A DNA stretch of 64,000 bases from Saprospiraceae bacterium (GCA_016708265.1 JADJGA010000003.1:776017-840016), one strand, 5' to 3'; positions 2,232-46,720 are shown, counted from the stretch's first letter. Notes: generated by a model not told the origin, from the letters alone. Numbers and translations: made by a program.

Positions 2232-4184
2232 ATGAGTTATCTCGAATTCGATAAGACAAAGTTAATAAATCTCTCATTTTCATTAAATCAGGAATTGCTC
2301 AGATCGAACAGGAGCGGTTCCTATTCATCTACAACTCTAATATTCTGTAATACAAGAAAATATCATGGCCTTTTAGTGACACCTCAACCGATGATCGATG
2401 ACGAATTGCACGTATTGGTGTCCGGGATTGACCCTACAATCATTCAGCATGATGCAGAATTCCATCTCGGTATTCACAGGTATCCCGGAGGAAAATATTC
2501 TCCGAAAGGGCATAAATATATGCGCGAAATAATAATTGATTCTATCCCCAAGATAGTTTACAGGGTAGGTGGTGTAGTTTTCTCAATAGAAAGTCTTTTT
2601 GCTTCCAGTGCCGACAGAATGCTGATAAAATATACAGTCGAAGAGTGCAATTCCCCGACAACAATAAGACTTCAGCCATTTCTTGCTTTCAGGCAAAGAC
2701 ACAGACTGAGCAAGGCAAATAATTTTATTGACAAGACATTTAAGCCATCTAATAATGGTGTCAATTTCAAATTGTATCAGGGCTATACTCCGGTTCATTT
2801 TCAGTTTTCAAAAAATACTGAATATGTGCACACACCGGACTGGTATTACAATATTGAATATGAAAAAGAAAGAAACCGGGGGTACGATTTCATGGAGGAC
2901 CTTTTTGTTCCCGGATTTTTTGAATTCGGCCTCAAAAAAGGAGAAAGCATAATTCTATCCTTAGGAACTGATGAAATAAACCCTGCAGGATTGTCGAGGA
3001 TGTTCAATAAAGAAAAAGAACTAAGGAAAAAACGCTTCGATTTTAAAAGTTCACTTGAAAATGCTGCAGATCAGTTCATTCAGAGACGTGATGGCAAGAC
3101 TGATATAATTGCCGGATATCCCTGGTTTGGTGTGTGGGGAAGAGATACATTTATTTCATTGCCCGGATTAACTTTGAGTACAGGCAGATTTGACATTGCC
3201 AAAGCTGTTCTGGATACCATGAGCAAAAGACTCAATGGTCCCTTATTCCCGAATGTCGGTACTGACAGTCAGGCTGCATTCAATTCCATTGATGCTCCGC
3301 TGTGGTATTTCTGGGCCGTTCAGCAATATGCCTATGAAACAGGAAATTTAGAAGCAGTCTGGAAAAGCTATGGTTCAAAAATGCTGGCAATACTTGAAGG
3401 ATATAAAAATGGTGCAGAGTACAATATCAAAATGCATGAAAATGGACTGATAAGCGGTGGTATTCAGGGAAAAGCACTAACCTGGATGGATGCTGTAACT
3501 GAGGGCAAAGCAGTTACACCCAGAATAGGTATGCCTGTCGAAATAAATGTGTTGTGGTTCAATGCGATAAGTTTTTATCTTGAGCTGGCTGAAAAATATG
3601 GTAAACAGAAAACCTTGACAGCATGGAAAGAAATACTTGAGAAGATCTCAAAATCATTTACTGAAACTTTCTGGGATGAGAATAAGGGATATCTCGCTGA
3701 TTATGTTGATGGTGAATACAAAAACTGGGATATACGGCCAAATATGATCTTTGCTGCTTCTCTCCCCTATAGTCCTGTTTCGGACTATATCAAGGCTGCA
3801 ATAGTGAATAAGGTAAAGGAGGAATTACTGACAGTCAGAGGCCTGAGAACATTGTCTCCAAGCAATCCCGAATATAAGGGAGTATATGAAGGAGATCAAA
3901 GCACCAGAGATAAAGCTTATCATCAGGGTACAGTATGGCCATGGCTTTTCGGACACTATGCCGAAGCATATCTGAAAATAAGAAAAAAAAGCGGCATTCA
4001 TAAAATGGAATGGTATCTTGAGCAATTTGAACAGACTATGTATGAACACGGTATAGGTACAATTTCAGAAATATTCGACGGTGATCCCCCTCATACTCCA
4101 AGAGGAGCCATATCACAGGCATGGAGTGTAGGTGAAATACTAAGAGTGATGAGTATCATTGAGAAAGTGAAAAGTGAAAAGTGA
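2232..4184 (+). CDS. Glycogen debranching enzyme (amylo-alpha-1,6-glucosidase, GDE_N + GDE_C)
   Basis: 650 aa; GDE_C-type motifs GYPWFGVWGRDTFISLPGL and (alpha/alpha)6 barrel region; syntenic with other alpha-glucan genes. Confidence 0.85.
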   Translation: MSYLEFDKTKLINLSFSLNQELLRSNRSGSYSSTTLIFCNTRKYHGLLVTPQPMIDDELHVLVSGIDPTIIQHDAEFHLGIHRYPGGKYSPKGHKYMREIIIDSIPKIVYRVGGVVFSIESLFASSADRMLIKYTVEECNSPTTIRLQPFLAFRQRHRLSKANNFIDKTFKPSNNGVNFKLYQGYTPVHFQFSKNTEYVHTPDWYYNIEYEKERNRGYDFMEDLFVPGFFEFGLKKGESIILSLGTDEINPAGLSRMFNKEKELRKKRFDFKSSLENAADQFIQRRDGKTDIIAGYPWFGVWGRDTFISLPGLTLSTGRFDIAKAVLDTMSKRLNGPLFPNVGTDSQAAFNSIDAPLWYFWAVQQYAYETGNLEAVWKSYGSKMLAILEGYKNGAEYNIKMHENGLISGGIQGKALTWMDAVTEGKAVTPRIGMPVEINVLWFNAISFYLELAEKYGKQKTLTAWKEILEKISKSFTETFWDENKGYLADYVDGEYKNWDIRPNMIFAASLPYSPVSDYIKAAIVNKVKEELLTVRGLRTLSPSNPEYKGVYEGDQSTRDKAYHQGTVWPWLFGHYAEAYLKIRKKSGIHKMEWYLEQFEQTMYEHGIGTISEIFDGDPPHTPRGAISQAWSVGEILRVMSIIEKVKSEK

Positions 4185-4350
4185 AAAGTGAATAATTGAA
4201 AATTGAAAATTTTGAGGCAAGTTGCAACAGTAGGCAATACAGTGAAGAGTGAAAAGTGAAGAGTGAAAAGTGAAAAGTGAAAAGTGAAAAGTGAAGAGTG
4301 AAGAGTGAAAAGTGAAGAGTGAAAAGTGAAGAGTGAAAAGTGAAGAGTGA
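4156..4350. repeat. Heptanucleotide microsatellite (GTGAARA)n, two blocks (4156-4190 and 4242-4350, about 16 units)
   Basis: Direct reading: gtgaaaagtgaaaagtgaaaag... and gtgaagagtgaaaagtgaagagtg...; overlaps the stop of the debranching enzyme and sits in the spacer to the next gene. Confidence 0.95.
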
Positions 4351-4590
4351 TAAGGTAGTAGACAACTGCAGGCAGAACTTACTGCTCAGTCATAAGTCGG
4401 GATTAAGTATACTTAAAACTGAAGACTGAAAATCTGCTGGGTTTTAACTTATAAATGATAGCTGATAATTGAAAAAATTTAGAAAAAAATAGTTTGCATG
4501 CTGATGAAACAGGAAAAATTTTATTTAAAATCCTGAAATCATCGGGAAGAATTAAAACACTGATCACAGATCACTGAAAAACTGAAAAAT

Positions 4591-5874
4591 ATGAAAGTAT
4601 TGATGTTCGGTTGGGAATTTCCGCCACATATCGCAGGAGGACTGGGCACTGCATGTTATGGCCTCGTAAAGGGTCTGATGAAAAGATCAGTCGATGTGAC
4701 ATTTGTAGTTCCAAAAGCCTTTGGTGATGAGGATAAGGATGTCAGGATCATAAATGCCAGCGATGTGACACTGAATATTTTCGATAAACATTTTATTGAT
4801 TTTCAGAAGAATCTTAAATATATGGAGATCAATTCAAGGTTGATACCATATCAGACTCCCGAAGAGTATTTCAGATTGCTGAATGCAGAGGAAAAAAGCA
4901 CAACCGAAGAAAATACATCGGTATTTTCAGCTTCCTATAAATTTGCTGGTGCTTATGGAAAAAATATCCTGGAAGAAGTTCAGCGATATGCCATGATAGC
5001 TGCAGAAATAGCAAACAAAGAACAATTTGATATCATTCATGCTCATGACTGGCTGACTTATGAAGCCGGAATTGCAGCAAAGAAAATAAGCGGGAAACCC
5101 CTGGTAGTGCATATACATGCCACTGAATTTGACAGGTCGGGAGAAAATGTAAATCAGATGGTATATGATATTGAGAGAAAAGGCATGGTAGCAGCCGACC
5201 GTGTAATTGCGGTCAGTCACCTTACCAGAAATATAGTTATAGACAGATATGGGATTGATCCTGAAAAAGTCAAAGTGGTGCATAATGCAGTTGAACCGGT
5301 TGAAAAAATGGATTTCTCGGAAGAGAAAAAAACTGTTGATGAAAAAATCGTAACATTTTTAGGAAGGATAACCTTCCAAAAAGGTCCGGAATATTTTGTC
5401 GAAGCATCAAATAAAGTGATGCAAAAAGACGGTAATGTCAGGTTTGTGATGGCCGGATCTGGAGATATGCTCGAAAAAATGGTTAAGAGGGTTGCCAAAG
5501 TCAGAATGGGAAATAAGTTTCACTTTACGGGTTTTCTTAAAGGCGATGATGTTGACAGGATGTTCGTATTGAGTGATGTCTATGTGATGCCCAGTGTCTC
5601 TGAACCTTTCGGTATCTCTCCGCTGGAAGCAATGAGATCAAATGTCCCAGTTATTATATCAAAGCAATCCGGGGTAGCTGAAGTTCTTAAATTCGCATTG
5701 AAAGTAGATTTCTGGGATGTGGATGCGATGGCAGATTATATTCATGCTCTGCTGCATTATGAGGGATTATCCAGGATGTTTATTAAATATGGTAAAGAAG
5801 AAGTTGATAATCTGAAGTGGGAAAATGCGGCAGTAAAAATTTCAGATATATATGAAAATACGTGTAGCATGTAA
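4591..5874 (+). CDS. Glycosyltransferase (GT4/GT5-like; possible alpha-glucan/glycogen synthase)
   Basis: N-terminal FPPHIAGGLGTACYGL resembles the KTGGL motif of GlgA-type synthases; GT-B fold E-x7-E region near the C-terminus; genomic context. Confidence 0.75.
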   Translation: MKVLMFGWEFPPHIAGGLGTACYGLVKGLMKRSVDVTFVVPKAFGDEDKDVRIINASDVTLNIFDKHFIDFQKNLKYMEINSRLIPYQTPEEYFRLLNAEEKSTTEENTSVFSASYKFAGAYGKNILEEVQRYAMIAAEIANKEQFDIIHAHDWLTYEAGIAAKKISGKPLVVHIHATEFDRSGENVNQMVYDIERKGMVAADRVIAVSHLTRNIVIDRYGIDPEKVKVVHNAVEPVEKMDFSEEKKTVDEKIVTFLGRITFQKGPEYFVEASNKVMQKDGNVRFVMAGSGDMLEKMVKRVAKVRMGNKFHFTGFLKGDDVDRMFVLSDVYVMPSVSEPFGISPLEAMRSNVPVIISKQSGVAEVLKFALKVDFWDVDAMADYIHALLHYEGLSRMFIKYGKEEVDNLKWENAAVKISDIYENTCSM

Positions 5875-6044
5875 GGTTTATGAAGGTTAAATTGTTTATG
5901 AGGTTTATAAAGTTTAGAAAGTTTAGAATGTTTAGAAGTAATAGTCAAACTGCAAATGATAATTTACGATCATACCTTTTCACCTTTCAGCCTAAAACTT
6001 TGCAACCATAAAAATAATTAAAAATAAATTAAAAAAATAGTGAT

Positions 6045-7247
6045 ATGAAATCCATTTGCTTATTTTTTCAGGTACATCAGCCATACAGATTGAGAAGATT
6101 CAGATTTTTTGATATCGGAAAAGAACCTGAATATTTTGATGATTTTCAGAATAATTATATATTGAAGAGAGTAGCAGAAAAATGCTATCTTCCTATGAAT
6201 AAGCTGCTCCTGGATCTTATAAAAGAATTCGGTTCACAGTTCAGGGTAAGTTTTTCAATTTCAGGTACTGCTATTGATCAGTTTGAGGAATACTATCCCG
6301 AAGTACTGGACAGCTTTAAGAAGCTTGCTAAAACCGGATCAGTAGAATTCCTTGCCGAGACAAACTCGCACTCACTGGCTTCACTGAAGAATAAGGAGGA
6401 ATTTTTTGCTCAGGTTAGTGCACACAAAGACAAAATCACAAAACTGTTTGGCAAAGCTCCGAAAGTATTCAGAAATACTGAAATGATCTATTCCGATGAG
6501 ATCGGGGCAATGGTAGCAGAAATGGGTTTCAGCGGGATGCTGACCGAAGGAGCCAAACATGTACTGGGCTGGAAATCTCCCAATTTCCTGTATACCAATG
6601 CTATCAATCCCAAACTGAAAATAATGCTGAGGAATTTCAGACTCAGTGACGATATTGCGTTCAGATTTTCAGAAAAAGGATGGAGTGAATGGCCACTTAC
6701 CGTAGAAAAATTTGTAGGATGGATGAAAGACCTGGGAAAAGATGAACAGGTGATCAATCTTTTCATGGATTATGAAACCTTTGGTGAACATCAGTGGGTT
6801 GATACCGGAATATTTGATTTCATGAAGGCACTTCCGGCAGAAGTATTCAAAAATTCGGATTTCACTTTCAATACTCCCGGAGAAATTATCGAAAAATACC
6901 AGCCAATATCAAAAATACATGTGCCCTATCCTATTTCATGGGCAGATGAAGAAAGAGACCTGACTGCATGGCTTGGGAATGAACTACAGGACGATGCTTT
7001 TGACAAATTATTTGAACTCGAACCACTTGTGAAAAAGTGTACTGATAAATCCATCAAAGAAAACTGGAGACACCTTCAGACAAGTGATCATTTCTACTAC
7101 ATGTGTACAAAATGGTTCTCGGACGGTGAGGTCCACAAGTATTTCAATCCCTATGGCTCACCATATGATGCATATATCAACTACATGAATGTACTTTCTG
7201 ATTTTGAGATAAGGGTGAAAAAATGCTCAGGGAAAAAGGGCAAATAG
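6045..7247 (+). CDS. Glycoside hydrolase family 57 protein (alpha-amylase/4-alpha-glucanotransferase type)
   Basis: N-terminal FFQVHQPYR motif typical of GH57; 400 aa; alpha-glucan gene context. Confidence 0.8.
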   Translation: MKSICLFFQVHQPYRLRRFRFFDIGKEPEYFDDFQNNYILKRVAEKCYLPMNKLLLDLIKEFGSQFRVSFSISGTAIDQFEEYYPEVLDSFKKLAKTGSVEFLAETNSHSLASLKNKEEFFAQVSAHKDKITKLFGKAPKVFRNTEMIYSDEIGAMVAEMGFSGMLTEGAKHVLGWKSPNFLYTNAINPKLKIMLRNFRLSDDIAFRFSEKGWSEWPLTVEKFVGWMKDLGKDEQVINLFMDYETFGEHQWVDTGIFDFMKALPAEVFKNSDFTFNTPGEIIEKYQPISKIHVPYPISWADEERDLTAWLGNELQDDAFDKLFELEPLVKKCTDKSIKENWRHLQTSDHFYYMCTKWFSDGEVHKYFNPYGSPYDAYINYMNVLSDFEIRVKKCSGKKGK

Positions 7248-7725: not shown

Positions 7726-9552
7726 CTATTCCATCTTCACCACCTTCTCAGTTTTCATTATTTTATGCCCATCCATAAATACACAAAAATAAAACCCCGA
7801 AGATAGTTGAGACAAATCTACAACGTTCTGCCCGTAGTATAGCCTTTGTGATAAAACCTGCCTGCCTGAAATATCAGTTATTTTTATGTGCCCATTTTCA
7901 GGAATATATTCTCCGAGTGTCACCTGCAGGATATCCTCTATTGGATTTGGGTACAGACTTATATCTATTGCTTTATCCTCAGCAGGTTCATCAGATGCAC
8001 TTGTACTGATATTTATATTCCTGCATATTGTATTGTTGCTGTTTTCATTGCTTACTGTAAGGCAAACATTATAGCTTCCATTTTTCGGAAACCTGTGGTA
8101 TGGATACCTCTCTTCGACCACAGGACTACCATCACCGAAATCCCACCTCCACAGCTCCGGCCTGAAATATGACAGATCTGTAAATTTGATAAGCAGATGA
8201 TCGAGAGTATCAGCCTCATAGCGGAATTTTGCAACCGGATCATTGTCGAGACCGAGAGTATCGCAGGGAGAGTTGTCGAGTGGACCTGTACGATAGTTTG
8301 GGAAATTTGGAATGCCACGAGTTATCCCTGTTGGCATTATCAGTGAATGCTGTTTGACAACACAACTCTCACCTTCATGATATGGATGGTGTATTACACT
8401 CATCATGCGCGTACTGGCAGAACTTGGTGAAATATATATTCTTCCATCAGGTCCAAGTCCTAAAGCACAAAAATTAACAGAATAACCAAGAGGGGCTATG
8501 GTGTCAAATGGAAAGTAGTATTTATACCCATCATAAGTAGCCACCTTAGTTTCACTTGCCAAAACATCTTCTTGTTTCAAATCGTACTGATAAATAAAAT
8601 CCCTGTTGCACATAAACAAATATCTACTGTCATGAGAAAATGATATTCCAAAACCTAATCTGTAATTTGAAAGGTCAACATATTTTAATGCCGGATTGTA
8701 TATCTTTCCTGTGCATCTGTCGAATTTAGCAATAAAATGCTGACCTCCAGTTGAATTGAAGTTTCTGCTCACAAACCAACTAAGCCATTCCCCGTCAGGA
8801 GATCCATATATTTGCCCTATACCTTCTAAACCAGTTAAATCTGTTTCCTGTCTTCCCTGGTAATGTATTCCATCTGGATCTATTAGCCAAATATGGAGTG
8901 TATTTCCTGCTTTACGAGGAGCTATCAGCCACCAGTCCCTGCCATTACCATGTGATATTGCAGTTATACTGCCTGATAGTGAATCCTTAAGCATAACTAT
9001 ATCTTTTTTCAGAATTTTTCCCAGTTTGTCATCATCACTCACTTCAAACATAGCATAACTGATCTGGTATTGAACAAAAAATGGTTCATATCTGCCGAAA
9101 GTTGTATAAAAGGTATAAAATCGATTACTATTACCAGGAACAGGCATTATAATAGCCCCCTGAATTGTTAATAATCCTGATGGAATAGCTAAATTCATAT
9201 CTCCATCATTACAATACTCCCAATCATCACTATAATTGATTGTATCTTCAATTGGGTCATCAAACTGATTATATATAACCTGTCCATTTGTAAATGCAAG
9301 TATTTTTCCCTCACTATTACATAAACTCGAATTAGTAAATGAAAAATCTAAAAATCTATCTGGGGCATAATAAATCTTTGGAGGATCATAATTGAAATCT
9401 ATATTTGAAGCCCCTCTGGTAGTATCTGATGCCCGATCGGGAAGAATTACGTCATAAGGTTCTTGCCCAAATAGCCATATATGATCCTCCTTCTGGCAAA
9501 AAGCAAATATTCTTAAAAATAAAATTATGATAATCACTAAAATTCTTAACAT
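7726..9552 (-). CDS. Secreted protein with T9SS C-terminal sorting domain (paralog family A; NGRDWWLI motif)
   Basis: Signal peptide; C-terminal ~80 aa with the LYPNP...GFYF...KVVK pattern typical of Por/T9SS CTDs; paralogous to 26366..27892. Confidence 0.7.
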   Translation of the reverse strand: MLRILVIIIILFLRIFAFCQKEDHIWLFGQEPYDVILPDRASDTTRGASNIDFNYDPPKIYYAPDRFLDFSFTNSSLCNSEGKILAFTNGQVIYNQFDDPIEDTINYSDDWEYCNDGDMNLAIPSGLLTIQGAIIMPVPGNSNRFYTFYTTFGRYEPFFVQYQISYAMFEVSDDDKLGKILKKDIVMLKDSLSGSITAISHGNGRDWWLIAPRKAGNTLHIWLIDPDGIHYQGRQETDLTGLEGIGQIYGSPDGEWLSWFVSRNFNSTGGQHFIAKFDRCTGKIYNPALKYVDLSNYRLGFGISFSHDSRYLFMCNRDFIYQYDLKQEDVLASETKVATYDGYKYYFPFDTIAPLGYSVNFCALGLGPDGRIYISPSSASTRMMSVIHHPYHEGESCVVKQHSLIMPTGITRGIPNFPNYRTGPLDNSPCDTLGLDNDPVAKFRYEADTLDHLLIKFTDLSYFRPELWRWDFGDGSPVVEERYPYHRFPKNGSYNVCLTVSNENSNNTICRNINISTSASDEPAEDKAIDISLYPNPIEDILQVTLGEYIPENGHIKITDISGRQVLSQRLYYGQNVVDLSQLSSGFYFCVFMDGHKIMKTEKVVKME

Positions 9553-9666
9553 AAAATAGTTTTTTAAAAACTCAGACCTGTCAAAAAAAGTTAAACAGGC
9601 CTGAGTAAATGATTAAATTTCATCATTTGATCAAAATAAGCTTAGTAGAAGAAACGATTCTTTTTA

Positions 9667-10000
9667 CTTGATCGTCACGGTTTAAAACTGTGACGCACTA
9701 CGCTTTTCCAAAATAAAATTTTCCATCACTTACATTGATTATCAAATACAAATGTAAATAAATTCTCCTGGCAAATGCAATTTTTATTCTGAATTTTTAT
9801 GTATCAAGTTTGCAGCAAGAGGACAGAGCCTGTGCCGCATCTGCGGTAAGTCCTTTGCTGCGGAGAATGCTCTGTGATAAATCCCGAACAATTGTCGGGA
9901 CTGACCTCTTATCACAATGGCACTGCATTCCTTTGCTGCAAAGTACCGCTCCGTGATAAAGATCTTATCGGTACCATTTAAAACCATCCAACCCTGATAC
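9667..10000. repeat. Intergenic repeat, copy 2 (~330 bp; carries an ~80-bp internal insertion/duplication including a TCCCGAACAATTGTCGGGA hairpin)
   Basis: Aligns with copies 1 and 3; extra segment 9880-9960 is absent from the other copies. Confidence 0.9.
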
Positions 10001-10005
10001 CTTTC

Positions 10006-10043
10006 TATCTTAGTAAATCGTAATTCGTAATTGAAAATTCGTA
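10006..10043. repeat. Short tandem repeat (CGTAATTC-like units)
   Basis: aatcgtaattcgtaattgaaaattcgtaattcaaaacc read directly. Confidence 0.7.
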
Positions 10044-10052
10044 ATTCAAAAC

Positions 10053-11663
10053 CTACCTTCCCTTCACAAACTTCCCACTCCGCATTCTCCCCCCATCATC
10101 AACCCTCGACACAATATAAACCCCGGGGCTGAAATCATGCAACTGCACTATATAGGTATGATCTTTCAGATTGCCCGACCATTTTCTGATTGCGTTGCCT
10201 TTGATATCAGCAATTGTATATTTTGATTCTCCGCCTTTGTCATCATAAATAAATAGGACATCTGAAGATGGATTGGGATAGATGAGAAGTTCATTTTGTG
10301 ATGTTTCTTCTGTGACACTCACTGTATCACCATTCTGACAGCCGGGTACGAGGCAGCCGTACTGATCGACCTTGAGGAGCCAGGTTGGAGCCCAACCTAT
10401 GGAATCATCTGGCATAGGTGCAAATCTGAGAGTGCCATACATATAATATCCTCCATCAGGAGAATATATGATATCATTGAGTTCATGATTTGGTGATTGT
10501 TCCGGATTGCTGACCAGGCTATATGACCTTAACCACTGTCTTTCTCCATCTTCATTTATTTTTTCCAGTATGCCTACTGTCATCAAGGCTATTCCGTTTT
10601 GCCACAATGAATCTATTTCTTTTTCTGTCAGGTTGTAGGCATAATTCACCTGGTATCCTGCTAGTAAATATCCATCTTGCTGCTGTGTCTCAATGATATT
10701 TGTTGATTTATAGTAATAGTCAATTTCAAAATCCAGACTCCAGGGTTTTTCCCAAATTTGTACAAAGTTTTTATTAAGTTTAAATACTCGTAGTCTTATT
10801 TTAGGATAAAAGTTATTTGGATCGGTTTTTTGATAGTGTTTACCATAATGAGAAGTGCATATATATTCCCCAAGCTTTGTCTTAAATAATTTAAATATAG
10901 GACCTCTCATACTATCAGTCCTGTGAACAATTTTAAAATTGCCTGCTAGATCAACCTCATAAATTATTCCTTCGATATTTCTCTTTATATATTGTCCAAT
11001 TATGAAGGGAGGATCTAAATATCCTGTACCCACTAAAAAACTGCTTCCTGTCCAATGCAAAAATGTCGGACTGTCAGATATATCTTTCTTGCCGAATATC
11101 ACATATTTTACACTATCTGTTTTGATGTTTATAATACATATCTGAGAATCTGCATATTGTGAATTCAGTGATTCCTGAATGGTCAATAAGACGGCATATA
11201 TGCTATCATTTATTTTGATCATGTCATGTAAAAATGCTGTGTCATCAGTTTGACTTATAAAAGGAATTTTTTTTAATATTTCTCCAGTCCCTATTCTATA
11301 AATCATCAGGTAACCGTTGGCATTTTTATTGCCATTACTATCAATACAAACCAATAAGGAGTCATTTTGAACAAAAGCATTATTAGTTTGATTATAAACA
11401 TTTAAGCGCTGAGGCTCTATATCAATATATCTTTTAAGGAAATTTCCATTTAAGTCAATTTTCGACATAAATACAGCATAGTAGTCAAAAGTATCATGAT
11501 CCACACCATTGCCTAAACATAGTAAGGTATCATGAAATAAAATAATCGGCCCTGACTGGTTTATATGTTTCATTATATCAATACCTTTATTGAATGTCGT
11601 TTGTGATACCAGGAAAATATTTATACTAAAAAATAAAATAAATAACAGAAATAAATTTTTCAT
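10053..11663 (-). CDS. Secreted beta-propeller-like protein with T9SS C-terminal sorting domain (family B)
   Basis: Signal peptide; C-terminus LIYPNPSSDVLFIY...GVYIVSRV...KFVKGR is a canonical T9SS CTD. Confidence 0.7.
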   Translation of the reverse strand: MKNLFLLFILFFSINIFLVSQTTFNKGIDIMKHINQSGPIILFHDTLLCLGNGVDHDTFDYYAVFMSKIDLNGNFLKRYIDIEPQRLNVYNQTNNAFVQNDSLLVCIDSNGNKNANGYLMIYRIGTGEILKKIPFISQTDDTAFLHDMIKINDSIYAVLLTIQESLNSQYADSQICIINIKTDSVKYVIFGKKDISDSPTFLHWTGSSFLVGTGYLDPPFIIGQYIKRNIEGIIYEVDLAGNFKIVHRTDSMRGPIFKLFKTKLGEYICTSHYGKHYQKTDPNNFYPKIRLRVFKLNKNFVQIWEKPWSLDFEIDYYYKSTNIIETQQQDGYLLAGYQVNYAYNLTEKEIDSLWQNGIALMTVGILEKINEDGERQWLRSYSLVSNPEQSPNHELNDIIYSPDGGYYMYGTLRFAPMPDDSIGWAPTWLLKVDQYGCLVPGCQNGDTVSVTEETSQNELLIYPNPSSDVLFIYDDKGGESKYTIADIKGNAIRKWSGNLKDHTYIVQLHDFSPGVYIVSRVDDGGRMRSGKFVKGR

Positions 11664-11787
11664 AGTTTTGATGGTAAAAAACAGGCTCTGCCTGATTAAT
11701 GACAGAGCCTGAAATTAAATAATTATTCCACTATAAGTTTTCCACTATATACTTTTCCTGATCTGTCAGTAGCATGATACATGAACC

Positions 11788-12060
11788 CTTGACCGTCACG
11801 GTTTGCAACCGTGAAGCAATACGCTCTTCTCAAATGAAATTTTCCCTTCACAATCATTGATTATCAAATACAAATGTAAACGATTTTTCCGGCAAATGTA
11901 ATTTTTATTCTGAGTTTTTATCTATCAAACTTGCAGCAAGAGGACAGAGCCTGTGCCGCATCTGCGGTAAGTCATTTGCAGCGGAGTCCTGCTCCGTGAT
12001 AAAGGTCTTACCGGCACCATTTAAAACCTTCCCACCCTTCTACCTTCCAACCCTTCTACC
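11788..12060. repeat. Intergenic repeat, copy 3 (~270 bp)
   Basis: Aligns with copies 1 and 2 (cttgaccgtcacggtttgcaaccgtgaagc...ccatttaaaacc ttcccacccttctacc). Confidence 0.9.
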
Positions 12061-12272
12061 ATCCTGCCTTCTCTGTTACCTTGCCACCTTTTACGCTCCA
12101 AATTCACACCTTTTCACAAACTTTCTTTTCATCACTATTCAGTATTTTTCAATCTTACCATCCTTTTTTGGCAAAAAGTCTGATAAAATTCCTATTTTTG
12201 CGGTTTTTTATAATCAGTGACCAGTTTTTACATTATTGGCCATGTGTAATTGAATAATTTAAACAGTAATTT

Positions 12273-15200
12273 ATGAATCATAAAAAAATCACCCTCTTTG
12301 AAGTCAGCTGGGAAGTTTGCAATAAGGTAGGAGGGATATATACGGTAGTTTCATCAAAGGAAAAGAGATTGTCAGAAAAATACGACAATGTCATCATGAT
12401 AGGACCTGAACTCGCTAAGGAAAACGGGCAGAACATTGAATTTACTGAAGACAGGACCCTTTATGAATCCTGGAGAATGATAGCCAATGAGCAGGGACTT
12501 AAATTCAGGATCGGGAGATGGAATATACCCGGCAAACCTGTAGCAATCCTTGTAGATTTCACCTCATTATTCAAAGATAAAAATAAGATTTTCGCACACT
12601 TCTGGGAAAAATACAAACTCGATTCTATCCGTGGAGACTGGGATTATGTAGAACCTGTTATGTTTGGCTATGCTGTCGGACAGGTCATAGAATCTTTTTA
12701 TAAATATCATCTGCTTCAATATGAAACAGTGCTTGCACAATTCCACGAATGGATGACCGGATCAGGAATATTATACCTTAAAGAAATGGTCCCTGAAATA
12801 GGAACAATATTCACAACTCATGCTACTGCCCTCGGGAGAACCATTGCCGGAAATCATATGCCTCTGTACAATAAAATGGAGGAATACAATCCAAGGGTCA
12901 CTGCTTCGAACAACAATATTTCATCAAAGTATTCAATAGAGAAAATCTCAGCACAGGAAGCTGATGCTTTTACAACTGTTTCAAGTATTACAGCCAGGGA
13001 ATGCAGGAATTTTCTTGAAAAAGAGCCTGACTTCGTCACACCAAATGGTTTTGAAGATACAATAGTTCCGATACAGAACGAATATAATATTAAAAAACAA
13101 ATAGCTGTAAATAAACTCAGAGAAGTTACAGAAGCAGTGATAGGTCATAAACTTGGAAAAAATCCTGTATTTATTCTTAACAGTGGCAGATATGAATTCA
13201 AGAACAAAGGTATTGATGTTTTTATTAAAGCTCTTGCACGTCTAAATGGAAAATCGAAGAAGGAAATAGTTGGTGTTATAGCAGTACCGGCAGGAATTAA
13301 ACATCCGAATCCGGTAGTGGTTCAGAGATTGAATGGTGATCTGAGCAATACATATCCCCATATCAGCACACATGAGCTTTCAGATCCGAATAATGATCCT
13401 GTGATCAGGCTTATGAGAGAGCTGAATATGCACAACAGCCCTGAACAAAATGTGAAAATCATCTTTGTGCCTGTCTATCTCAACGGTTTTGACGGAATCG
13501 TGAATCTTGAATATTACGATTTTCTGTTAGGATTTGATCTTTCGGCATTTCCTTCATATTATGAACCCTGGGGCTATACGCCGATGGAAAGCATGGCTTA
13601 TTCAGTACCAACTATAACAACATCACTTGCAGGATTTGGTGCATGGATTAAAGATAAACTGGACGATAAAAACAACGGAGCATATGTAATAGAACGTAAC
13701 GACACAAACGATGAAGAAGTAATAATTCAATTGTCGAAAATAATTTCAAAATTCTGCTCCCTGTCCGAAGGAGAAAAAATGCTGGCTTCAATGCAGGCAA
13801 AAGAATTATCAAACTTTGCTTTGTGGAAAAATCTGATAATTCACTATATTGATGCATACAATAAAGCGATAGAGAGTGCAGATAAGAGAAAAGAATTCAT
13901 AGAGGAAATGATAGCATATGAAAGAAAGGAAGTTCAGACCGAAGCCCTTGATTCCAATCAGCCTGTCTGGAAAAAGATCTTCATCAAACCGAGCCTGCCG
14001 GCAAGCATTAAATTCATAGAAGAACTCGCTAAAAACATATGGTGGACATGGAATAAAGAAGCTGAATCACTGTTCAAATATATGGATACTGAACTTTGGG
14101 AAGAAGTAGAACACAATCCGGTTGCCTTGATAGAAAAGCTGAGTATGAGACAACTAAACAGACTCGAAAATGATACAGTTTTTCATGATAAGCTGGTAAA
14201 AGTGGAAAGTAAATTCAGAAATTATATGGCTGTGGAAAAAAGACCTCAGCAGATAGTTTATTTCAGCATGGAGTTCGGACTTCATGATACAGTCAAAATA
14301 TTCTCCGGAGGTCTCGGAATTCTGGCAGGAGATTATATGAAAGAAGCAAGCGACAGCAACTATAATATGACAGGAATAGGCCTGCTTTACAGATTCGGCT
14401 ATTTTAAACAAAAAATAACATTGCTCGGAGATCAGATCTCTCACCTGACTCCTCAAAGATTCACACACCTTCCTGTCAAACCTGTCAGAAATGAAAACGG
14501 AGAATGGATGAGAATTGCCATTTCCCTGCCCGGCAGGATTTTGATGGCTCAGGTATGGAAGATGAAAGTAGGCAGAAACCTCCTGTATTTACTGGATACC
14601 GATATTGAAGATAACACTCTGGAAGACAGGAAAATCACCTCTCAACTTTATGGTGGAGGACTTGAAACCAGATTGCTTCAGGAAATAGTATTGGGAATAG
14701 GAGGAGTAAAATTGCTGGAGCAATTAAATATTGAACCAGATCTTGTACATATAAATGAAGGTCATGCAGCATTGACAGGAATTGAAAGACTAAGGATTTA
14801 TATTCAGAACAAAAATATGAGTTTTGATATAGCTAAGGAACTGGTGAGGGCTTCAAGTTTATTTACAACACATACACCTGTCCCAGCCGGTCATGATGAA
14901 TTTTCTGAAGATCTTATCAGGGCTTATCTGCCAAATTATAACGAAAAACTGAATATCTCCTGGAATGATTTTATGGGTCTGGCCAGGTGGAATCCTGAAG
15001 ATAAAACATCCAAATTCTCGATGAGCGTATTAGCAACCAAGCTTTCAATGGGAATGAACGGTGTGAGTAAGATACACGGAGAAGTTTCCCAAAAAATGTT
15101 CGCAGCTCTTTATCCTGGCTATTTCCCAAATGAAATGCACATTGATTTCGTGACTAACGGAGTTCATTTGCCTTTTTGGGTAGGAACTACATGGAATGAG

Positions 15201-16490
15201 TTATATAAAAAAAATCTTAACGAAGATTATCTGAATAATTCTCTTGATAAAAACATGTGGAATAAAATATATGATGTCAGCCATGAAACAATCTGGGAAA
15301 CAAGAAATTATTACAGACATAAACTTATAGAGTATCTTAAAATCAGACTTCATAAAGAATTACTTGACAGGAATGAATCTCCCAGGCTTGTTTATAAGAC
15401 CATCGAAGGATTACGGGATGATATACTTACAATAGGATTTGCAAGACGATTTGCTACTTATAAAAGAGGTGCCATTCTGTTCAACAATATTGAGAGACTT
15501 AAAACCATATTGAGCATTCCCAATATGCCGGTTCAGATTATTTTTGCAGGCAAAGCACATCCAAATGATAAAGCAGGCCAGGACCTTATTAAAAGTATAA
15601 TAGAGTTTTCTAAATCACCTGATTTTGCAGGTAAGATATTTTTCGTTGAAAACTACGATATTACCCTTGCAAAATACCTTGTTCAGGGAGTTGATGTTTG
15701 GTTGAATACTCCTACAAGACCTCTTGAAGCATCGGGTACAAGTGGAGAAAAAGCAGTAATGAACGGAGTTCTGAATTTAAGTGTACTTGATGGCTGGTGG
15801 GCAGAAGGATATGTCGAAGGAGCAGGTTGGGCTCTGAAAAAAGAAAGAACTTATGAAAACCAGGATTTTCAGAATGTTCTCGACGCCCTGACTATTTATG
15901 ATATAATTGAGGATGAAATTTTACCTGAATTCTATGAGCGAAACGAAAAAAATATACCTGTAAACTGGGTAAATATGATCAAGAAAAACATTGCAGAGAT
16001 CGTACCCAACTTTACAATGAAAAGAATGATTGAAGATTATAATGAAAAGTACTATACAAAGCAAATTAAAAGATATGACTCATTGAAGAAGGACGATTAC
16101 AAGCTTACTAATGAAATAGTAGAATGGAAGAACAAAGTCTTAAGCCAATGGGAGAAAATTACTGTCATAAAGTCTGAGTATCCGGACTCAACACTAAGAC
16201 CTATTATTTTAGGTGAAAAAGTGACCTCAAGACTGACTCTGGATATTGGCAGCCTTAATCCCGATGACATAGGAGTTGAAGTACTTTACGGAACTAAAAA
16301 AGAGGATGGAAATGTTGAATTGCTATTTGTGTTTCCATTAAAATTCCATAAAGCCAATGGCAGCATCGTTTCATATCAGAGAGAAGTACAGGCAGGATTG
16401 ACTGGAGTCTATGATTTTGCATTCAGAATATTTCCTAAAAATGATCTGCTGCCTCACAGAATGGATTTTCCTGTTGTGAAATGGGTATAA
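12273..16490 (+). CDS. Fusion protein: GT3 glycogen(starch) synthase (N-terminal ~550 aa) + DUF3417/GT35 alpha-glucan phosphorylase (C-terminal ~850 aa)
   Basis: N-terminus FEVSWEVCNKVGGIYTVV (eukaryote-type GT3 glycogen synthase); middle IWWTWNKEAESLF (DUF3417); EFGLHDTVKIFSGGLGILAGDYMKEASD and the lysine-containing phosphorylase core (GT35 'alpha-glucan family phosphorylase'); single uninterrupted 1405-codon frame. Confidence 0.85.
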   Translation: MNHKKITLFEVSWEVCNKVGGIYTVVSSKEKRLSEKYDNVIMIGPELAKENGQNIEFTEDRTLYESWRMIANEQGLKFRIGRWNIPGKPVAILVDFTSLFKDKNKIFAHFWEKYKLDSIRGDWDYVEPVMFGYAVGQVIESFYKYHLLQYETVLAQFHEWMTGSGILYLKEMVPEIGTIFTTHATALGRTIAGNHMPLYNKMEEYNPRVTASNNNISSKYSIEKISAQEADAFTTVSSITARECRNFLEKEPDFVTPNGFEDTIVPIQNEYNIKKQIAVNKLREVTEAVIGHKLGKNPVFILNSGRYEFKNKGIDVFIKALARLNGKSKKEIVGVIAVPAGIKHPNPVVVQRLNGDLSNTYPHISTHELSDPNNDPVIRLMRELNMHNSPEQNVKIIFVPVYLNGFDGIVNLEYYDFLLGFDLSAFPSYYEPWGYTPMESMAYSVPTITTSLAGFGAWIKDKLDDKNNGAYVIERNDTNDEEVIIQLSKIISKFCSLSEGEKMLASMQAKELSNFALWKNLIIHYIDAYNKAIESADKRKEFIEEMIAYERKEVQTEALDSNQPVWKKIFIKPSLPASIKFIEELAKNIWWTWNKEAESLFKYMDTELWEEVEHNPVALIEKLSMRQLNRLENDTVFHDKLVKVESKFRNYMAVEKRPQQIVYFSMEFGLHDTVKIFSGGLGILAGDYMKEASDSNYNMTGIGLLYRFGYFKQKITLLGDQISHLTPQRFTHLPVKPVRNENGEWMRIAISLPGRILMAQVWKMKVGRNLLYLLDTDIEDNTLEDRKITSQLYGGGLETRLLQEIVLGIGGVKLLEQLNIEPDLVHINEGHAALTGIERLRIYIQNKNMSFDIAKELVRASSLFTTHTPVPAGHDEFSEDLIRAYLPNYNEKLNISWNDFMGLARWNPEDKTSKFSMSVLATKLSMGMNGVSKIHGEVSQKMFAALYPGYFPNEMHIDFVTNGVHLPFWVGTTWNELYKKNLNEDYLNNSLDKNMWNKIYDVSHETIWETRNYYRHKLIEYLKIRLHKELLDRNESPRLVYKTIEGLRDDILTIGFARRFATYKRGAILFNNIERLKTILSIPNMPVQIIFAGKAHPNDKAGQDLIKSIIEFSKSPDFAGKIFFVENYDITLAKYLVQGVDVWLNTPTRPLEASGTSGEKAVMNGVLNLSVLDGWWAEGYVEGAGWALKKERTYENQDFQNVLDALTIYDIIEDEILPEFYERNEKNIPVNWVNMIKKNIAEIVPNFTMKRMIEDYNEKYYTKQIKRYDSLKKDDYKLTNEIVEWKNKVLSQWEKITVIKSEYPDSTLRPIILGEKVTSRLTLDIGSLNPDDIGVEVLYGTKKEDGNVELLFVFPLKFHKANGSIVSYQREVQAGLTGVYDFAFRIFPKNDLLPHRMDFPVVKWV

Positions 16491-45376: not shown

Positions 45377-46720
45377 ATGGAAACAAAAAAAGAACTAAAA
45401 ATCCTGGTCTGGATTGGAATAATATTTGGTGCAGCATTCTTTTTACCTATTGAAAGTGCAAGGTTTAACACTGCAATTGCTGCAACATTGGATCTTGTGA
45501 AATGGTATGCCCGTGAGCATGTGATTTTATGCTTATTACCTGCTTTTTTTTTATTGCAGGGTTATCTCGGTATTTGTGAGTCAGGGTTCAATTTTGAGAT
45601 ACTTTGGAGCAAACGCAAAAAAATGGCTGGCTTACACAGTTGCTGCCAGCTCAGGAACTATTCTGGCAGTATGCAGTTGCACTATTTTGCCATTGTTCTC
45701 AAGCATTCACAAGAGAGGAGCAGGATTAGGACCGGCTATTGCCTTTCTATATTCTGGTCCCGCAATAAATATACTTGCCATCATTTTAACGGCAAGGATA
45801 CTCGGATTGCAAATGGGTATAGCCAGGACTATTGGTGCTGTATCTTTCAGTGTAATAATCGGATTGATAATGGCATTTATTTACCGAAAAGAAGAGAAAG
45901 TTAAAAAGGAAGAACAGATGAACATTCAGTTACCTGCTGAAAAGCGTCCGATGTGGCAAACTTCATTTCACTTTTTACACTTGTTTTGATACTTGTATTT
46001 GCAAACTGGGGAAAGCCATCCATAGATGACACATCAAGTGCCTGGTATTATTTATGGGCATACAAATGGTACATTACCGGATTTTTTTCATTGATGCTAG
46101 GCTTTTCACTAATTTATGTGCTAAAAATAAAATGGCAGTGGGTTTTGATGGCAGCATTTGCGACAATTGCTTCAGCGATATTAGCAACAAATCTTATTGA
46201 AAACTCAAAACTGGCACCACTTTTTCCGATGATGGTTGGGATAGCAGGTTTGAGTATTATTACGCTTTTGGACAAACAGGATGATGAAAACCGGGAATGG
46301 ACAATTTCAACCTGGGGTTTTGCAAAGCAAATTCTGCCATTGCTGGCAATAGGAGTTGTAACAGCCGGATTCCTGCTAGGATCAACACATGATGGTCAAA
46401 CAATTGCCGGAGTGATACCAAATGAATGGATACAATGGCTTGTGGGTGGCAATTCAGTTTTTTCCAATTTATTTGCATCAGTTGTCGGGGCATTTATGTA
46501 TTTTGCAACCCTTACAGAAGTTCCCATTCTTCAGGGGCTGATTGCATCCGGTATGGGAAAAGGCCCTGCTTTGGCTTTATTACTTGCCGGCCCATCACTT
46601 TCCCTTCCAAATATGCTTGTTATACAAAATGTTTTGGGAACTCAGAAGACAGTTGTTTATGTGACCCTGGTAGTGGCAATGGCAACAATTTCAGGTATGT
46701 TTACGGATGGCTATAACTAA
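45377..46720 (+). pseudogene. ArsP-like / DUF318 permease, split into three frames (shift at T10 run ~45545 and at T5 ~45985)
   Basis: Hallmark ILAVCSCTILPLF (TxCSC motif) in the second frame; N-terminal and C-terminal halves are permease-like TM segments in adjacent frames. Confidence 0.6.

What the first reader, a model, noticed from the sequence alone, without database searches (positions are those of the whole stretch)
12273..16490. Intact 1405-aa fusion of a GT3 glycogen synthase to a DUF3417/GT35 alpha-glucan phosphorylase
Opposing activities (UDP/ADP-glucose-dependent chain elongation and phosphorolytic chain shortening) are usually separate adjacent genes in Bacteroidota. Here they are one uninterrupted frame, in a window where many other genes carry frameshifts. 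Either the C-terminal 'phosphorylase-like' half has a non-canonical role (glucan binding/priming), or the fusion couples synthesis and degradation on one polypeptide.
Basis: partly seen in the sequence, partly recalled or inferred. Interest (0 to 1): 0.55.

Follow-up and report, generated by a model that had tools for sequence, protein, structure and literature searches.

The report
Fused glycogen synthase–phosphorylase gene, already catalogued
The 1405-residue gene is real and joins an apparently active glycogen-building enzyme to an apparently active glycogen-degrading enzyme, but the same fusion is common in Bacteroidota and beyond and already has its own database entry (KEGG K16153), so it is an ordinary, though biochemically unstudied, gene.

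Summary
Observation confirmed. Window 12273..16490 (+) is one uninterrupted 1405-aa ORF. Its N-terminal half is a GT3 glycogen synthase (Pfam Glycogen_syn, 368 bits). Its C-terminal half is a DUF3417/GT35 alpha-glucan phosphorylase (TIGR02094, 809 bits), alignable end to end with the characterised Segatella copri glycogen phosphorylase.

Every catalytic residue I checked is present in both halves, including the E-X7-E glutamates and the PLP lysine K1160. All are invariant in 120 fused homologues. The "dead phosphorylase" reading is therefore refuted.

The fusion is not unusual:
- All but one of the 120 listed hits (of 6642) are ~1400-aa full-length matches.
- 53 of the 150 closest GT3 cluster representatives are fused.
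- Cultured Chitinophaga filiformis and Sulfidibacter corallicola carry it.
- JGI names it "glycogen phosphorylase/synthase", which is the KEGG K16153 definition.

The split, adjacent arrangement (GT3, a 33-153 bp gap, then GT35) occurs in gut Muribaculaceae and Prevotellaceae and forms a nested clade. The gene belongs to a conserved GDE–GT4–GH57–fusion glycogen cluster.

The linker is poorly conserved in sequence, has a nearly fixed length (23-25 aa) and is modelled as flexible.

Most likely this is a bifunctional UDP-glucose glycogen synthase/phosphorylase tethered on the glycogen particle. How the two activities are kept apart is unknown, and I found no paper that characterises the fused enzyme. 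Already known; low interest.

The parts
12273..16490 (+). Complete fused gene, 1405 codons plus stop: GT3 glycogen synthase :: linker :: GT35 (clade 2) alpha-glucan/glycogen phosphorylase
12273..13880 (+). GT3 glycogen synthase half (aa 1-536). GT-B fold without the eukaryotic coiled-coil insert and without the Arg cluster.
   Evidence: Pfam Glycogen_syn 368 bits. Aligns to human GYS1, C. elegans and yeast Gsy2 in two blocks, 6-326 and 359-536, E ~1e-87. AF2 models it confidently, with the last helix at 518-544.
12747..12749 (+). Codon for E159 in the FHEW motif, equivalent to yeast Gsy2 E169
   Evidence: Aligned FHEW motif; position; invariant in 120/120 fused homologues. The yeast residue number is from my own knowledge.
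13188..13208 (+). GRYEFKNKG segment: R306 and K312, nucleotide-sugar phosphate-binding residues equivalent to Gsy2 R320 and K326
   Evidence: invariant 120/120. Yeast residue numbers are from my own knowledge.
13563..13589 (+). E-X7-E motif (E431...E439, YYEPWGYTPME), the catalytic signature of retaining GT-B glycogen synthases
   Evidence: Aligned with YYEPWGYTPAE of human and yeast GS; invariant 120/120
13881..13952 (+). Inter-domain linker (aa 537-560). It has the lowest conservation in the protein but a nearly fixed length.
   Evidence: Least conserved 20-aa block, mean top-residue fraction 0.31. Median identity 12%, but 23-25 aa long in 119/120 homologues. AF2 pLDDT below 50 for 546-572 with no regular secondary structure.
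13953..16487 (+). GT35 clade-2 glycogen phosphorylase half (aa 561-1405): N-terminal loop, DUF3417 alpha-helical domain, phosphorylase core and C-terminal beta-sheet domain
   Evidence: End-to-end alignment to Segatella copri GP (PDB 9L6I, residues 8-851), E 7e-261. TIGR02094 808.7 bits.
13995..14291 (+). DUF3417 (aa 575-673), the N-terminal alpha-helical domain of this phosphorylase clade
   Evidence: Pfam PF11897, E 7e-29. In ScGP this domain builds the pentamer (PMC12912991).
15444..15467 (+). RRFATYKR (aa 1058-1065): R1058, R1059, Y1063 and K1064, equivalent to ScGP R507, R508, Y512 and K513 (phosphate and substrate binding)
   Evidence: invariant 120/120
15726..15752 (+). EASGTSGEK (aa 1152-1160). 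K1160 is the pyridoxal-phosphate lysine, equivalent to ScGP K609 and to the final K of EASGTGNMK in E. coli MalP.
   Evidence: invariant 120/120
16140..16487 (+). Approximate C-terminal beta-sheet domain of clade-2 phosphorylases (about aa 1290-1405)
   Evidence: Aligned to the C-terminus of ScGP. Precomputed PF28476 GlgP_C on homologues. The boundary is approximate, and this region was not in the AF2 construct.
12193..12200 (+). TATTTTTG, a match to the Bacteroidota -7 promoter consensus TAnnTTTG, 80 nt upstream of the ATG (inferred promoter)
   Evidence: Pattern search. The consensus is from established knowledge, and function was not tested.
2232..4184 (+). Cluster partner: archaeal-type glycogen debranching enzyme (GDE_N + GDE_C)
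   Evidence: Directly upstream of GT4-GH57-fusion in L004 and L008.
4591..5874 (+). Cluster partner: GT4 glycosyltransferase with a starch-synthase-like N-domain (best NCBIfam match glgA_Coryne, below cutoff)
6045..7247 (+). Cluster partner: GH57 family glycoside hydrolase

Best explanation
The gene encodes a genuine, conserved two-enzyme polypeptide, the orthologue of KEGG K16153 'glycogen phosphorylase/synthase'.

The N-terminal half is a GT3 glycogen synthase. It is a stripped-down relative of the eukaryotic enzyme, without the tetramerisation insert and without the glucose-6-phosphate/phosphorylation Arg cluster. It most likely elongates alpha-1,4 chains from UDP-glucose.

The C-terminal half is a clade-2 PLP-dependent glycogen phosphorylase of the Segatella copri type. 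It most likely shortens the same chains with phosphate to give glucose-1-phosphate.

The fusion arose by joining two genes that sit next to each other, in the same order, in the ancestral glycogen cluster (GDE-GT4-GH57-GT3-GT35). A roughly 24-residue flexible tether of nearly fixed length keeps the synthase next to the phosphorylase. The standalone form of the phosphorylase assembles into a ring that wraps glycogen particles. The inferred benefits are 1:1 stoichiometry and co-localisation of both enzymes on the particle, with the direction of net flux set by metabolite levels (UDP-glucose, Pi, AMP).

Shown here: the architecture, the intact active sites, the conservation, the synteny and the wide distribution. 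Inferred: donor specificity, simultaneous activity of both halves, oligomeric state and mode of regulation.

Confidence is about 0.95 for the identity and architecture and about 0.55 for the mechanistic part. The overall figure given is a blend of the two.
For: - The ORF is intact and the domains are as described.
- The GT35 half aligns end to end with enzymatically characterised ScGP. ScGP's H316, R507, R508, K513 and PLP-K609 correspond to H867, R1058, R1059, K1064 and K1160.
- The GT3 half keeps FHEW-E159, R306, K312 and E431/E439 of E-X7-E.
- All of these residues are invariant in 120 fused homologues at 52-95% identity.
- The two halves diverge at the same rate (median identity 53% and 56%, r = 0.96), so both are under comparable constraint.
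- Full-length ~1400-aa homologues dominate the hit list. 53 of the 150 nearest GT3 50%-cluster representatives are fused, down to ~33% identity.
- Named occurrences are Chitinophaga filiformis, Sulfidibacter corallicola and a Bdellovibrio MAG. The JGI/KEGG name is documented.
- GDE-GT4-GH57-fusion synteny holds in Saprospiraceae and Porphyromonadaceae MAGs.
- The split version has the same gene order and gaps of 33-153 bp.
- The linker is variable in sequence, fixed in length and modelled with low confidence. pTM is 0.64 with confident individual domains.
- The Bacteroidota GT3 enzyme of Prevotella bryantii uses UDP-glucose, and that organism lacks glgC (PMC7935935 citing Lou et al. 1997).
Against: - I found no biochemical study of any fused member, so bifunctionality rests on residue conservation alone.
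- Two opposing activities on one chain would create a UTP-consuming futile cycle unless they are regulated, and no regulatory element was identified. The eukaryotic Arg cluster is absent. The ScGP distal-AMP Arg is Lys here, but it is also Lys in standalone gut GPs.
- The AF2 model covers only residues 1-1200, is a monomer and used a shallow alignment of 53 sequences. Its 'flexible tether' reading is therefore weak.
- Donor specificity (UDP- versus ADP-glucose) cannot be read from sequence.
- The rest of the source genome (galU, glgC, a GT5 glgA, a second phosphorylase) is unavailable.
Confidence: 0.72

Rival explanations
1. The phosphorylase half works mainly in the synthetic direction. It would make or extend malto-oligosaccharide primers from glucose-1-phosphate for the GT3 synthase, which has no glycogenin partner in bacteria. 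The fusion would then be a primer-plus-elongation machine rather than a synthesis/degradation pair.
For: ScGP catalyses the reverse (synthetic) reaction in vitro, with a good Km for G1P but a low kcat (PMC12912991). Eukaryotic GT3 synthases need a primer (PMC11046441). No glycogenin-like GT8 lies in the window cluster. Catalytic-residue conservation is equally compatible with this direction.
Against: Phosphorylases themselves need a primer. Cellular Pi/G1P ratios normally favour phosphorolysis (established knowledge). The split orthologues in gut Bacteroidales are regarded as degradative GPs. Nothing in the sequence distinguishes direction.
Confidence: 0.12
2. The fusion exists to run both reactions at once. 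That would be deliberate glycogen cycling, either for energy spilling or for continuous trimming of outer-chain length, rather than reciprocal switching.
For: Simultaneous glycogen synthesis and degradation is documented in rumen bacteria such as Fibrobacter. Prevotella bryantii is reported only to spill energy, by an undetermined mechanism (review PMC4432691). The fixed-length tether keeps both sites near the same chain ends.
Against: The organisms in which cycling or energy spilling was reported were not shown to carry the fusion, and Prevotellaceae have the split form. An obligatory futile cycle costs one UTP per turn. There is no direct evidence.
Confidence: 0.1
3. The C-terminal half is a catalytically dead, glucan-binding or scaffolding module.
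For: ScGP binds and wraps glycogen particles and has surface aromatic glycogen-binding sites, so a tethering function is plausible as an additional role.
Against: The PLP lysine, the EASGT motif, both arginines, the lysine and both histidines are present and invariant in 120/120 fused homologues. The half is as conserved as the synthase half.
Confidence: 0.03
4. The long ORF is an assembly or sequencing artefact that merged two adjacent genes, for example by loss of a stop codon and the short spacer.
For: The window contains at least one frameshifted gene, and the homologous region of the related MAG L004 is full of frame breaks.
Against: 119 independent full-length homologues have the same architecture and a 23-25-aa linker. 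They include complete genomes of cultured species. Split genes have 33-153 bp spacers with stops, not an in-frame linker.
Confidence: 0.01

Closest known systems
KEGG orthology K16153, glycogen phosphorylase/synthase [EC 2.4.1.1 2.4.1.11] (JGI product names 'glycogen phosphorylase/synthase' and 'phosphorylase/glycogen(starch) synthase'; RefSeq 'alpha-glucan family phosphorylase', e.g. WP_247814908.1 of Chitinophaga filiformis)
   Same: Same ~1400-aa architecture with N-terminal GT3, a short linker and C-terminal DUF3417/GT35. Homologues carrying these names match the query over 100% of its length at 52-69% identity.
   Different: Nothing architectural. This copy is simply a new sequence, with the closest database protein at 95% identity and the closest named genomes being Saprospiraceae MAGs at 68-73%. 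The KO itself appears to rest on annotation, since I found no biochemical paper.
Segatella (Prevotella) copri glycogen phosphorylase ScGP, clade-2 GP (PDB 9L6I and others; Shobu et al., PNAS 2026, PMC12912991)
   Same: Alignable from ScGP residue 8 to 851 with E 7e-261. It has the same domain set (N-loop, alpha-helical DUF3417, phosphorylase core, C-terminal beta domain) and the same catalytic residues and PLP lysine.
   Different: ScGP is a standalone 852-aa protein whose gene follows a separate GT3 gene in Prevotellaceae. Here its N-terminal loop is continuous with a 536-aa synthase. Whether the pentamer and the AMP-induced decamer can still form with five synthase domains attached is unknown. 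The distal-site R583 is K here, although it is also K in other standalone GPs.
Eukaryotic GT3 glycogen synthases (human GYS1, yeast Gsy2p, C. elegans GSY-1)
   Same: GT-B fold, the FHEW, THATxLGR, GRYEFKNKG and E-X7-E motifs, E ~1e-82 to 1e-87.
   Different: This protein lacks the ~85-residue coiled-coil insert used for tetramerisation; the alignment breaks between 326 and 359. It also lacks the regulatory Arg cluster (SRRQRIIQRNRTERLS aligns with SEGEKMLASMQAKELS) and the phosphorylated tails. No glycogenin partner is evident.
Prevotella bryantii UDP-glucose-dependent glycogen synthesis (Lou et al. 1997, as cited in PMC7935935)
   Same: A Bacteroidota GT3-type synthase that replaces the ADP-glucose GlgC/GlgA route. 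This is the basis for predicting UDP-glucose as donor.
   Different: That enzyme is from a family in which the synthase is a separate polypeptide. Donor use by the fused enzyme is untested.
Other fused alpha-glucan enzymes (TreS-Mak/Pep2, chlamydial GlgA-GlgB, Neisseria GlgB-MalQ; Chem Rev 2024, PMC11046441)
   Same: They follow the same principle: neighbouring genes of one glucan pathway fused into one polypeptide.
   Different: Those fusions join consecutive steps of one direction. This one joins formally opposing steps.

Membership tests
CAZy GT3 / Pfam PF05693 glycogen synthase | Significant match to the family profile above the curated threshold | tested here: met
   Glycogen_syn 368.3 bits against a cutoff of 27. 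PDB GT3 synthases at E 1e-82 to 1e-87.
CAZy GT3 / Pfam PF05693 glycogen synthase | Catalytic and nucleotide-sugar-binding residues of retaining GT-B synthases (E-X7-E; Arg/Lys pair; FHEW Glu) | tested here: met
   E431/E439, R306/K312 and E159 are present and invariant in 120 homologues.
CAZy GT3 / Pfam PF05693 glycogen synthase | Eukaryote-type regulation: Arg cluster for glucose-6-phosphate/phospho-control, and the coiled-coil tetramerisation insert | tested here: not met
   The Arg cluster is replaced by SEGEKMLASMQAKELS, and the alignment gap at 326-359 lacks the insert. The protein is a GT3 member but not a eukaryote-style regulated one.
CAZy GT3 / Pfam PF05693 glycogen synthase | UDP-glucose as glucosyl donor (EC 2.4.1.11) | not testable with these tools
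   Inferred only from P. bryantii biochemistry cited in PMC7935935.
GT35 alpha-glucan phosphorylase, TIGR02094 / clade-2 GP (ScGP type) | Profile match above the curated cutoff | tested here: met
   TIGR02094 808.7 bits against 191.7. Pfam Phosphorylase 106 bits against 27, DUF3417 101 bits against 25.
GT35 alpha-glucan phosphorylase, TIGR02094 / clade-2 GP (ScGP type) | PLP-binding lysine in the EASGTxxxK motif | tested here: met
   EASGTSGEK at 1152-1160. K1160 aligns with ScGP K609 and with the final K of EASGTGNMK in E. coli MalP. Invariant 120/120.
GT35 alpha-glucan phosphorylase, TIGR02094 / clade-2 GP (ScGP type) | Substrate- and phosphate-binding residues (ScGP H316, R507, R508, K513) | tested here: met
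   H867, R1058, R1059 and K1064, invariant 120/120.
GT35 alpha-glucan phosphorylase, TIGR02094 / clade-2 GP (ScGP type) | [quoted passage not shown] | tested here: met
   The alignment runs to the last residue of ScGP (query 1405 to ScGP 851). PF28476 GlgP_C is precomputed on close homologues.
GT35 alpha-glucan phosphorylase, TIGR02094 / clade-2 GP (ScGP type) | Pentameric ring and AMP-induced decamer inhibition | not testable with these tools
   Only a monomeric truncated AF2 model was possible. The distal-site Arg583 position is Lys, as in standalone Muribaculaceae and Prevotellaceae GPs.
NCBIfam NF041129 Thermococcales maltodextrin phosphorylase (equivalog) | Score above the equivalog cutoff | tested here: not met
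   729.3 bits against a cutoff of 1500. The protein is related but is not that equivalog.
KEGG K16153 glycogen phosphorylase/synthase (fused) | Single polypeptide with N-terminal GT3 and C-terminal GT35, about 1400 aa | tested here: met
   Architecture. Full-length homologues named this way by JGI at 52-69% identity and 100% coverage. KO definition from PMC8307300. The KOfam HMM itself was not run.
KEGG K16153 glycogen phosphorylase/synthase (fused) | Both EC activities (2.4.1.1 and 2.4.1.11) demonstrated | not testable with these tools
   No experimental paper was found for any fused member.

The most novel reading that the evidence does not exclude
The poorly conserved but length-invariant ~24-residue tether might place one synthase domain on each protomer of a ScGP-like phosphorylase ring that wraps a glycogen particle. 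That would make a single 'glycogen particle machine' in which ring assembly state or occupancy of one active site gates the other. Such a structural switch would prevent futile cycling without covalent modification. Alternatively, the phosphorylase ring might supply and hold the primer for a glycogenin-independent GT3 synthase. Either case would be a new regulatory logic for storage-glucan metabolism in a large part of the Bacteroidota.
Probability: 0.15. Interest if true: 0.55.

Novelty: already known. Interest (0 to 1): 0.2.

Why it matters
As a discovery it matters little. The fused gene is widespread, has a KEGG orthology number and is routinely picked up in metagenome annotation.

Two small points are useful. 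First, RefSeq labels these proteins only 'alpha-glucan family phosphorylase'. That hides the synthase half and can make genomes look as if they lack a glycogen synthase. Second, the fused enzyme seems never to have been characterised. The 2026 structure of the standalone Segatella copri phosphorylase (a glycogen-wrapping pentamer inhibited by AMP) now makes one question directly testable: how do a synthase and a phosphorylase on one chain avoid a futile cycle?

Tried and rejected
1. **Dead phosphorylase half.** Rejected: all catalytic residues are invariant.
2. **Dead synthase half.** Rejected for the same reason.
3. **Loss of the ScGP distal AMP site (R583) as a fusion-specific regulatory change.** The position is K in 87 of 120 fused proteins. 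It is also K in standalone Muribaculaceae and Prevotellaceae GPs, and R in two others. There is no fusion-specific signal, so I dropped this line.
4. **Rigid inter-domain interface.** AF2 on residues 1-1200 gave confident domains, but pLDDT 30-37 in the linker and pTM 0.64. There is no support for a fixed interface. The test is weak because the construct is truncated, monomeric and based on 53 sequences.
5. **Full-length search of the representative library.** I used the GT3 half instead.
6. **The single-protein scan of genome contigs.** It reached only close relatives, 13 loci, so the taxon survey relies on cluster names.
7. **Exact look-up of the window protein.** Not on record, so the source organism is known only as Saprospiraceae-like.
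8. **Literature searches for a characterised fused enzyme.** Searches for DUF3417, GT3-GT35, bifunctional and domain phrases found nothing relevant. The Chem Rev 2024 review discusses Bacteroidetes GT3 but, in the 300,000 characters held, not the fusion.
9. **Rfam scan of the window.** Only one tRNA; nothing in the 609-bp upstream spacer.
10. **NJ tree with Fitch count of fused/split states.** At least 8 changes, with gut Bacteroidales split forms nested inside a mostly fused clade. The tree is rough, has no support values, and some 'split' tips are probably frameshift artefacts. For example, the P0137 cluster also contains a 1417-aa member and adjacent partial genes.

Full report
**Observation**

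Window 12273..16490 (+) is a single ATG-started ORF of 1405 codons with no internal stop.
- Pfam places Glycogen_syn (GT3; 368 bits, residues 10-332 plus a second stretch) and Glycos_transf_1 (416-485) in the N-terminal half.
- Pfam places DUF3417 (575-673) and Phosphorylase (824-1174) in the C-terminal half.
- NCBIfam gives TIGR02094 'alpha-glucan family phosphorylase' at 808.7 bits against a cutoff of 191.7.

**Are both halves functional enzymes?**

The C-terminal 850 residues align end to end (E 7e-261) with Segatella copri glycogen phosphorylase (ScGP, PDB 9L6I). That enzyme was shown in 2026 to be an active phosphorylase. It forms a glycogen-wrapping pentamer and is inhibited by AMP through decamer formation (PMC12912991).
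- The residues that paper names as catalytic are H316, R507, R508, K513 and the PLP lysine K609.
- They correspond here to H867, R1058, R1059, K1064 and K1160, the last within EASGTSGEK.
- The alignment to E. coli MalP shows the same EASGT..K motif.

The N-terminal 555 residues align with human GYS1, C. elegans and yeast Gsy2 synthases (E 1e-82 to 1e-87) in two blocks.
- The FHEW, THATxLGR, GRYEFKNKG and YYEPWGYTPxE (E-X7-E) motifs are intact.
- The eukaryotic coiled-coil insert is missing.
- The regulatory arginine cluster is missing: SRRQRIIQRNRTERLS aligns with SEGEKMLASMQAKELS.

In an alignment of the query with 119 full-length fused homologues (52-95% identity), every one of these catalytic positions is invariant. 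The two halves have diverged in step: median identity is 53% and 56%, with r = 0.96. A catalytically dead C-terminal half is excluded as far as sequence can tell.

**Is the fusion unusual?**

No.
- The protein search returned 6642 hits at E <= 1e-10. Of the best 120, 119 are 1403-1437 aa with full-length coverage (99-100%).
- JGI calls them 'phosphorylase/glycogen(starch) synthase' or 'glycogen phosphorylase/synthase'. The latter is the definition of KEGG K16153 [EC 2.4.1.1 2.4.1.11] (PMC8307300), and that KO is used routinely in pathway surveys (PMC11093988).
- I searched the GT3 half against 1.84 billion 50%-identity representatives. It gave 520 clusters at E <= 1e-30. Of the top 150, 53 carry a GT35 part after the GT3 domain (29 full length, 24 cut by contig ends) and 97 are GT3-only.
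- Named fused members include cultured Chitinophaga filiformis (WP_247814908.1, 1405 aa), the acidobacterium Sulfidibacter corallicola (WP_237377747.1, 1448 aa) and a Bdellovibrio MAG.
- The closest named genomes to this window are Saprospiraceae MAGs at 68-73%.

**Origin and context**

In a Muribaculaceae contig (L017), a Prevotellaceae contig (L020) and L014, a 536-563-aa GT3 gene is followed after 33-153 bp by a standalone DUF3417/Phosphorylase/GlgP_C gene. That gene is about 855 aa in L017 and L020 and is cut by the contig end in L014. The order is the same as in the fusion.

A rough neighbour-joining tree of GT3 domains puts the gut Bacteroidales standalone forms (Bacteroidaceae, Muribaculaceae, Prevotellaceae) as one clade nested among fused forms. 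It implies about 8 state changes in all. This suggests an old fusion with later fissions, but the tree has no support values.

In Saprospiraceae L004 and Porphyromonadaceae L008 the fusion directly follows an archaeal-type debranching enzyme, a GT4 transferase and a GH57 hydrolase. The window has the same three genes at 2232-7247. Here, however, two T9SS cargo genes on the opposite strand (7726-11663) are inserted before the fusion. The fusion then has its own 609-bp upstream region with a Bacteroidota-type TAnnTTTG motif at 12193. The downstream TauE and SSF genes are syntenic with L004.

**Linker**

Residues 537-560 are the least conserved part of the protein. Median identity there is 12%. 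Yet the linker is 23-25 residues long in 119 of 120 homologues.

An AlphaFold2 model of residues 1-1200 gives two confident domains (mean pLDDT 79.7). The linker at 546-572 has pLDDT 30-37, and pTM is 0.64. This points to a flexible tether rather than a packed interface.

**How it most likely works**

Shown: a conserved polypeptide with two intact active sites, derived from neighbouring genes of one glycogen cluster.

Inferred:
- The synthase uses UDP-glucose, by analogy with Prevotella bryantii (PMC7935935).
- The phosphorylase degrades the same particle.
- The tether ensures equal amounts and co-localisation on glycogen.
- Net direction is set by metabolites.

Not explained: how a UTP-wasting cycle is avoided. 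The eukaryotic control elements are absent. The ScGP distal AMP-site arginine is lysine here, but it is also lysine in standalone gut enzymes, so it says nothing specific about the fusion.

Rivals that remain open are a primer-making (reverse-direction) role for the phosphorylase half and deliberate glycogen cycling. A non-catalytic C-terminal half and an assembly artefact are rejected.

**Comparison and verdict**

The gene meets every sequence-level membership criterion of GT3, of TIGR02094/clade-2 GT35 and of the fused KO K16153. It fails only the Thermococcales maltodextrin-phosphorylase equivalog cutoff (729 against 1500 bits) and the eukaryote-specific regulatory features of GT3. It is an ordinary new sequence of an already catalogued fusion.

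I found no paper that characterises a fused member, within a library limited to open-access PMC and bioRxiv. The mechanistic question is therefore real but not new to this window.

Novelty: already known. Interest: 0.2.

Noticed in passing
window 2232-7247 (+); L004 1175-5669; L008 1220-5729; L013 3107-7515: A conserved gene triad recurs: archaeal-type glycogen debranching enzyme, a GT4 transferase (closest to the glgA_Coryne/GlgM-like subfamily but below cutoff) and GH57. It directly abuts the GT3::GT35 fusion in Saprospiraceae and Porphyromonadaceae MAGs and stands without it in Phocaeicola. The role of the GT4 in glycogen metabolism is flagged as unclear in the Chem Rev 2024 review.
   Followed up: partly
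window 7726-9552 and 10053-11663 (- strand): Two T9SS cargo genes (Por_Secre_tail, one with PKD domains) are inserted between GH57 and the fusion, breaking the cluster that is contiguous in the related MAG L004. A strong terminator-like hairpin at 11682-11711 (-) lies just upstream of the start of the second gene.
   Followed up: partly
window 50356-52214 (- strand): Gamma-glutamyltranspeptidase is split into two overlapping ORFs (Pfam profile 3-149 in 51408-52214, 141-506 in 50356-51651). This is either a frameshift or a sequencing error.
   Followed up: partly
window 45377-46720 (+): Three overlapping ORFs. The last carries only positions 102-292 of the ArsP_1 permease profile, so this is probably a frameshifted permease gene.
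   Followed up: no
L004 6001-10219 and flanks: The homologous fusion gene and its neighbours in Saprospiraceae MAG ABC1.120 are broken into many tblastn segments in different frames. That suggests an error-prone assembly rather than pseudogenes.
   Followed up: no
L018 5034-13695; L019 137-8798: One standalone GT3 glycogen-synthase-like gene sits not next to a phosphorylase but in front of GT2, ScmC, PqqD-like, NTP_transf_5, ABC-transporter and GT8 genes. This is a different and unexplained context for a GT3 enzyme.
   Followed up: no
window 12020-12090 (+): The 609-bp region upstream of the fusion contains a pyrimidine-rich run of CCTTCTACC-like repeats. There is no Rfam match, and its function is unknown.
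   Followed up: partly
RefSeq and GenBank names of homologues: NCBI names the ~1400-aa fused proteins only 'alpha-glucan family phosphorylase'. That conceals the glycogen synthase half. One close homologue (83% identity) is labelled 'Deltaproteobacteria bacterium', probably a mis-binned MAG contig.
   Followed up: no
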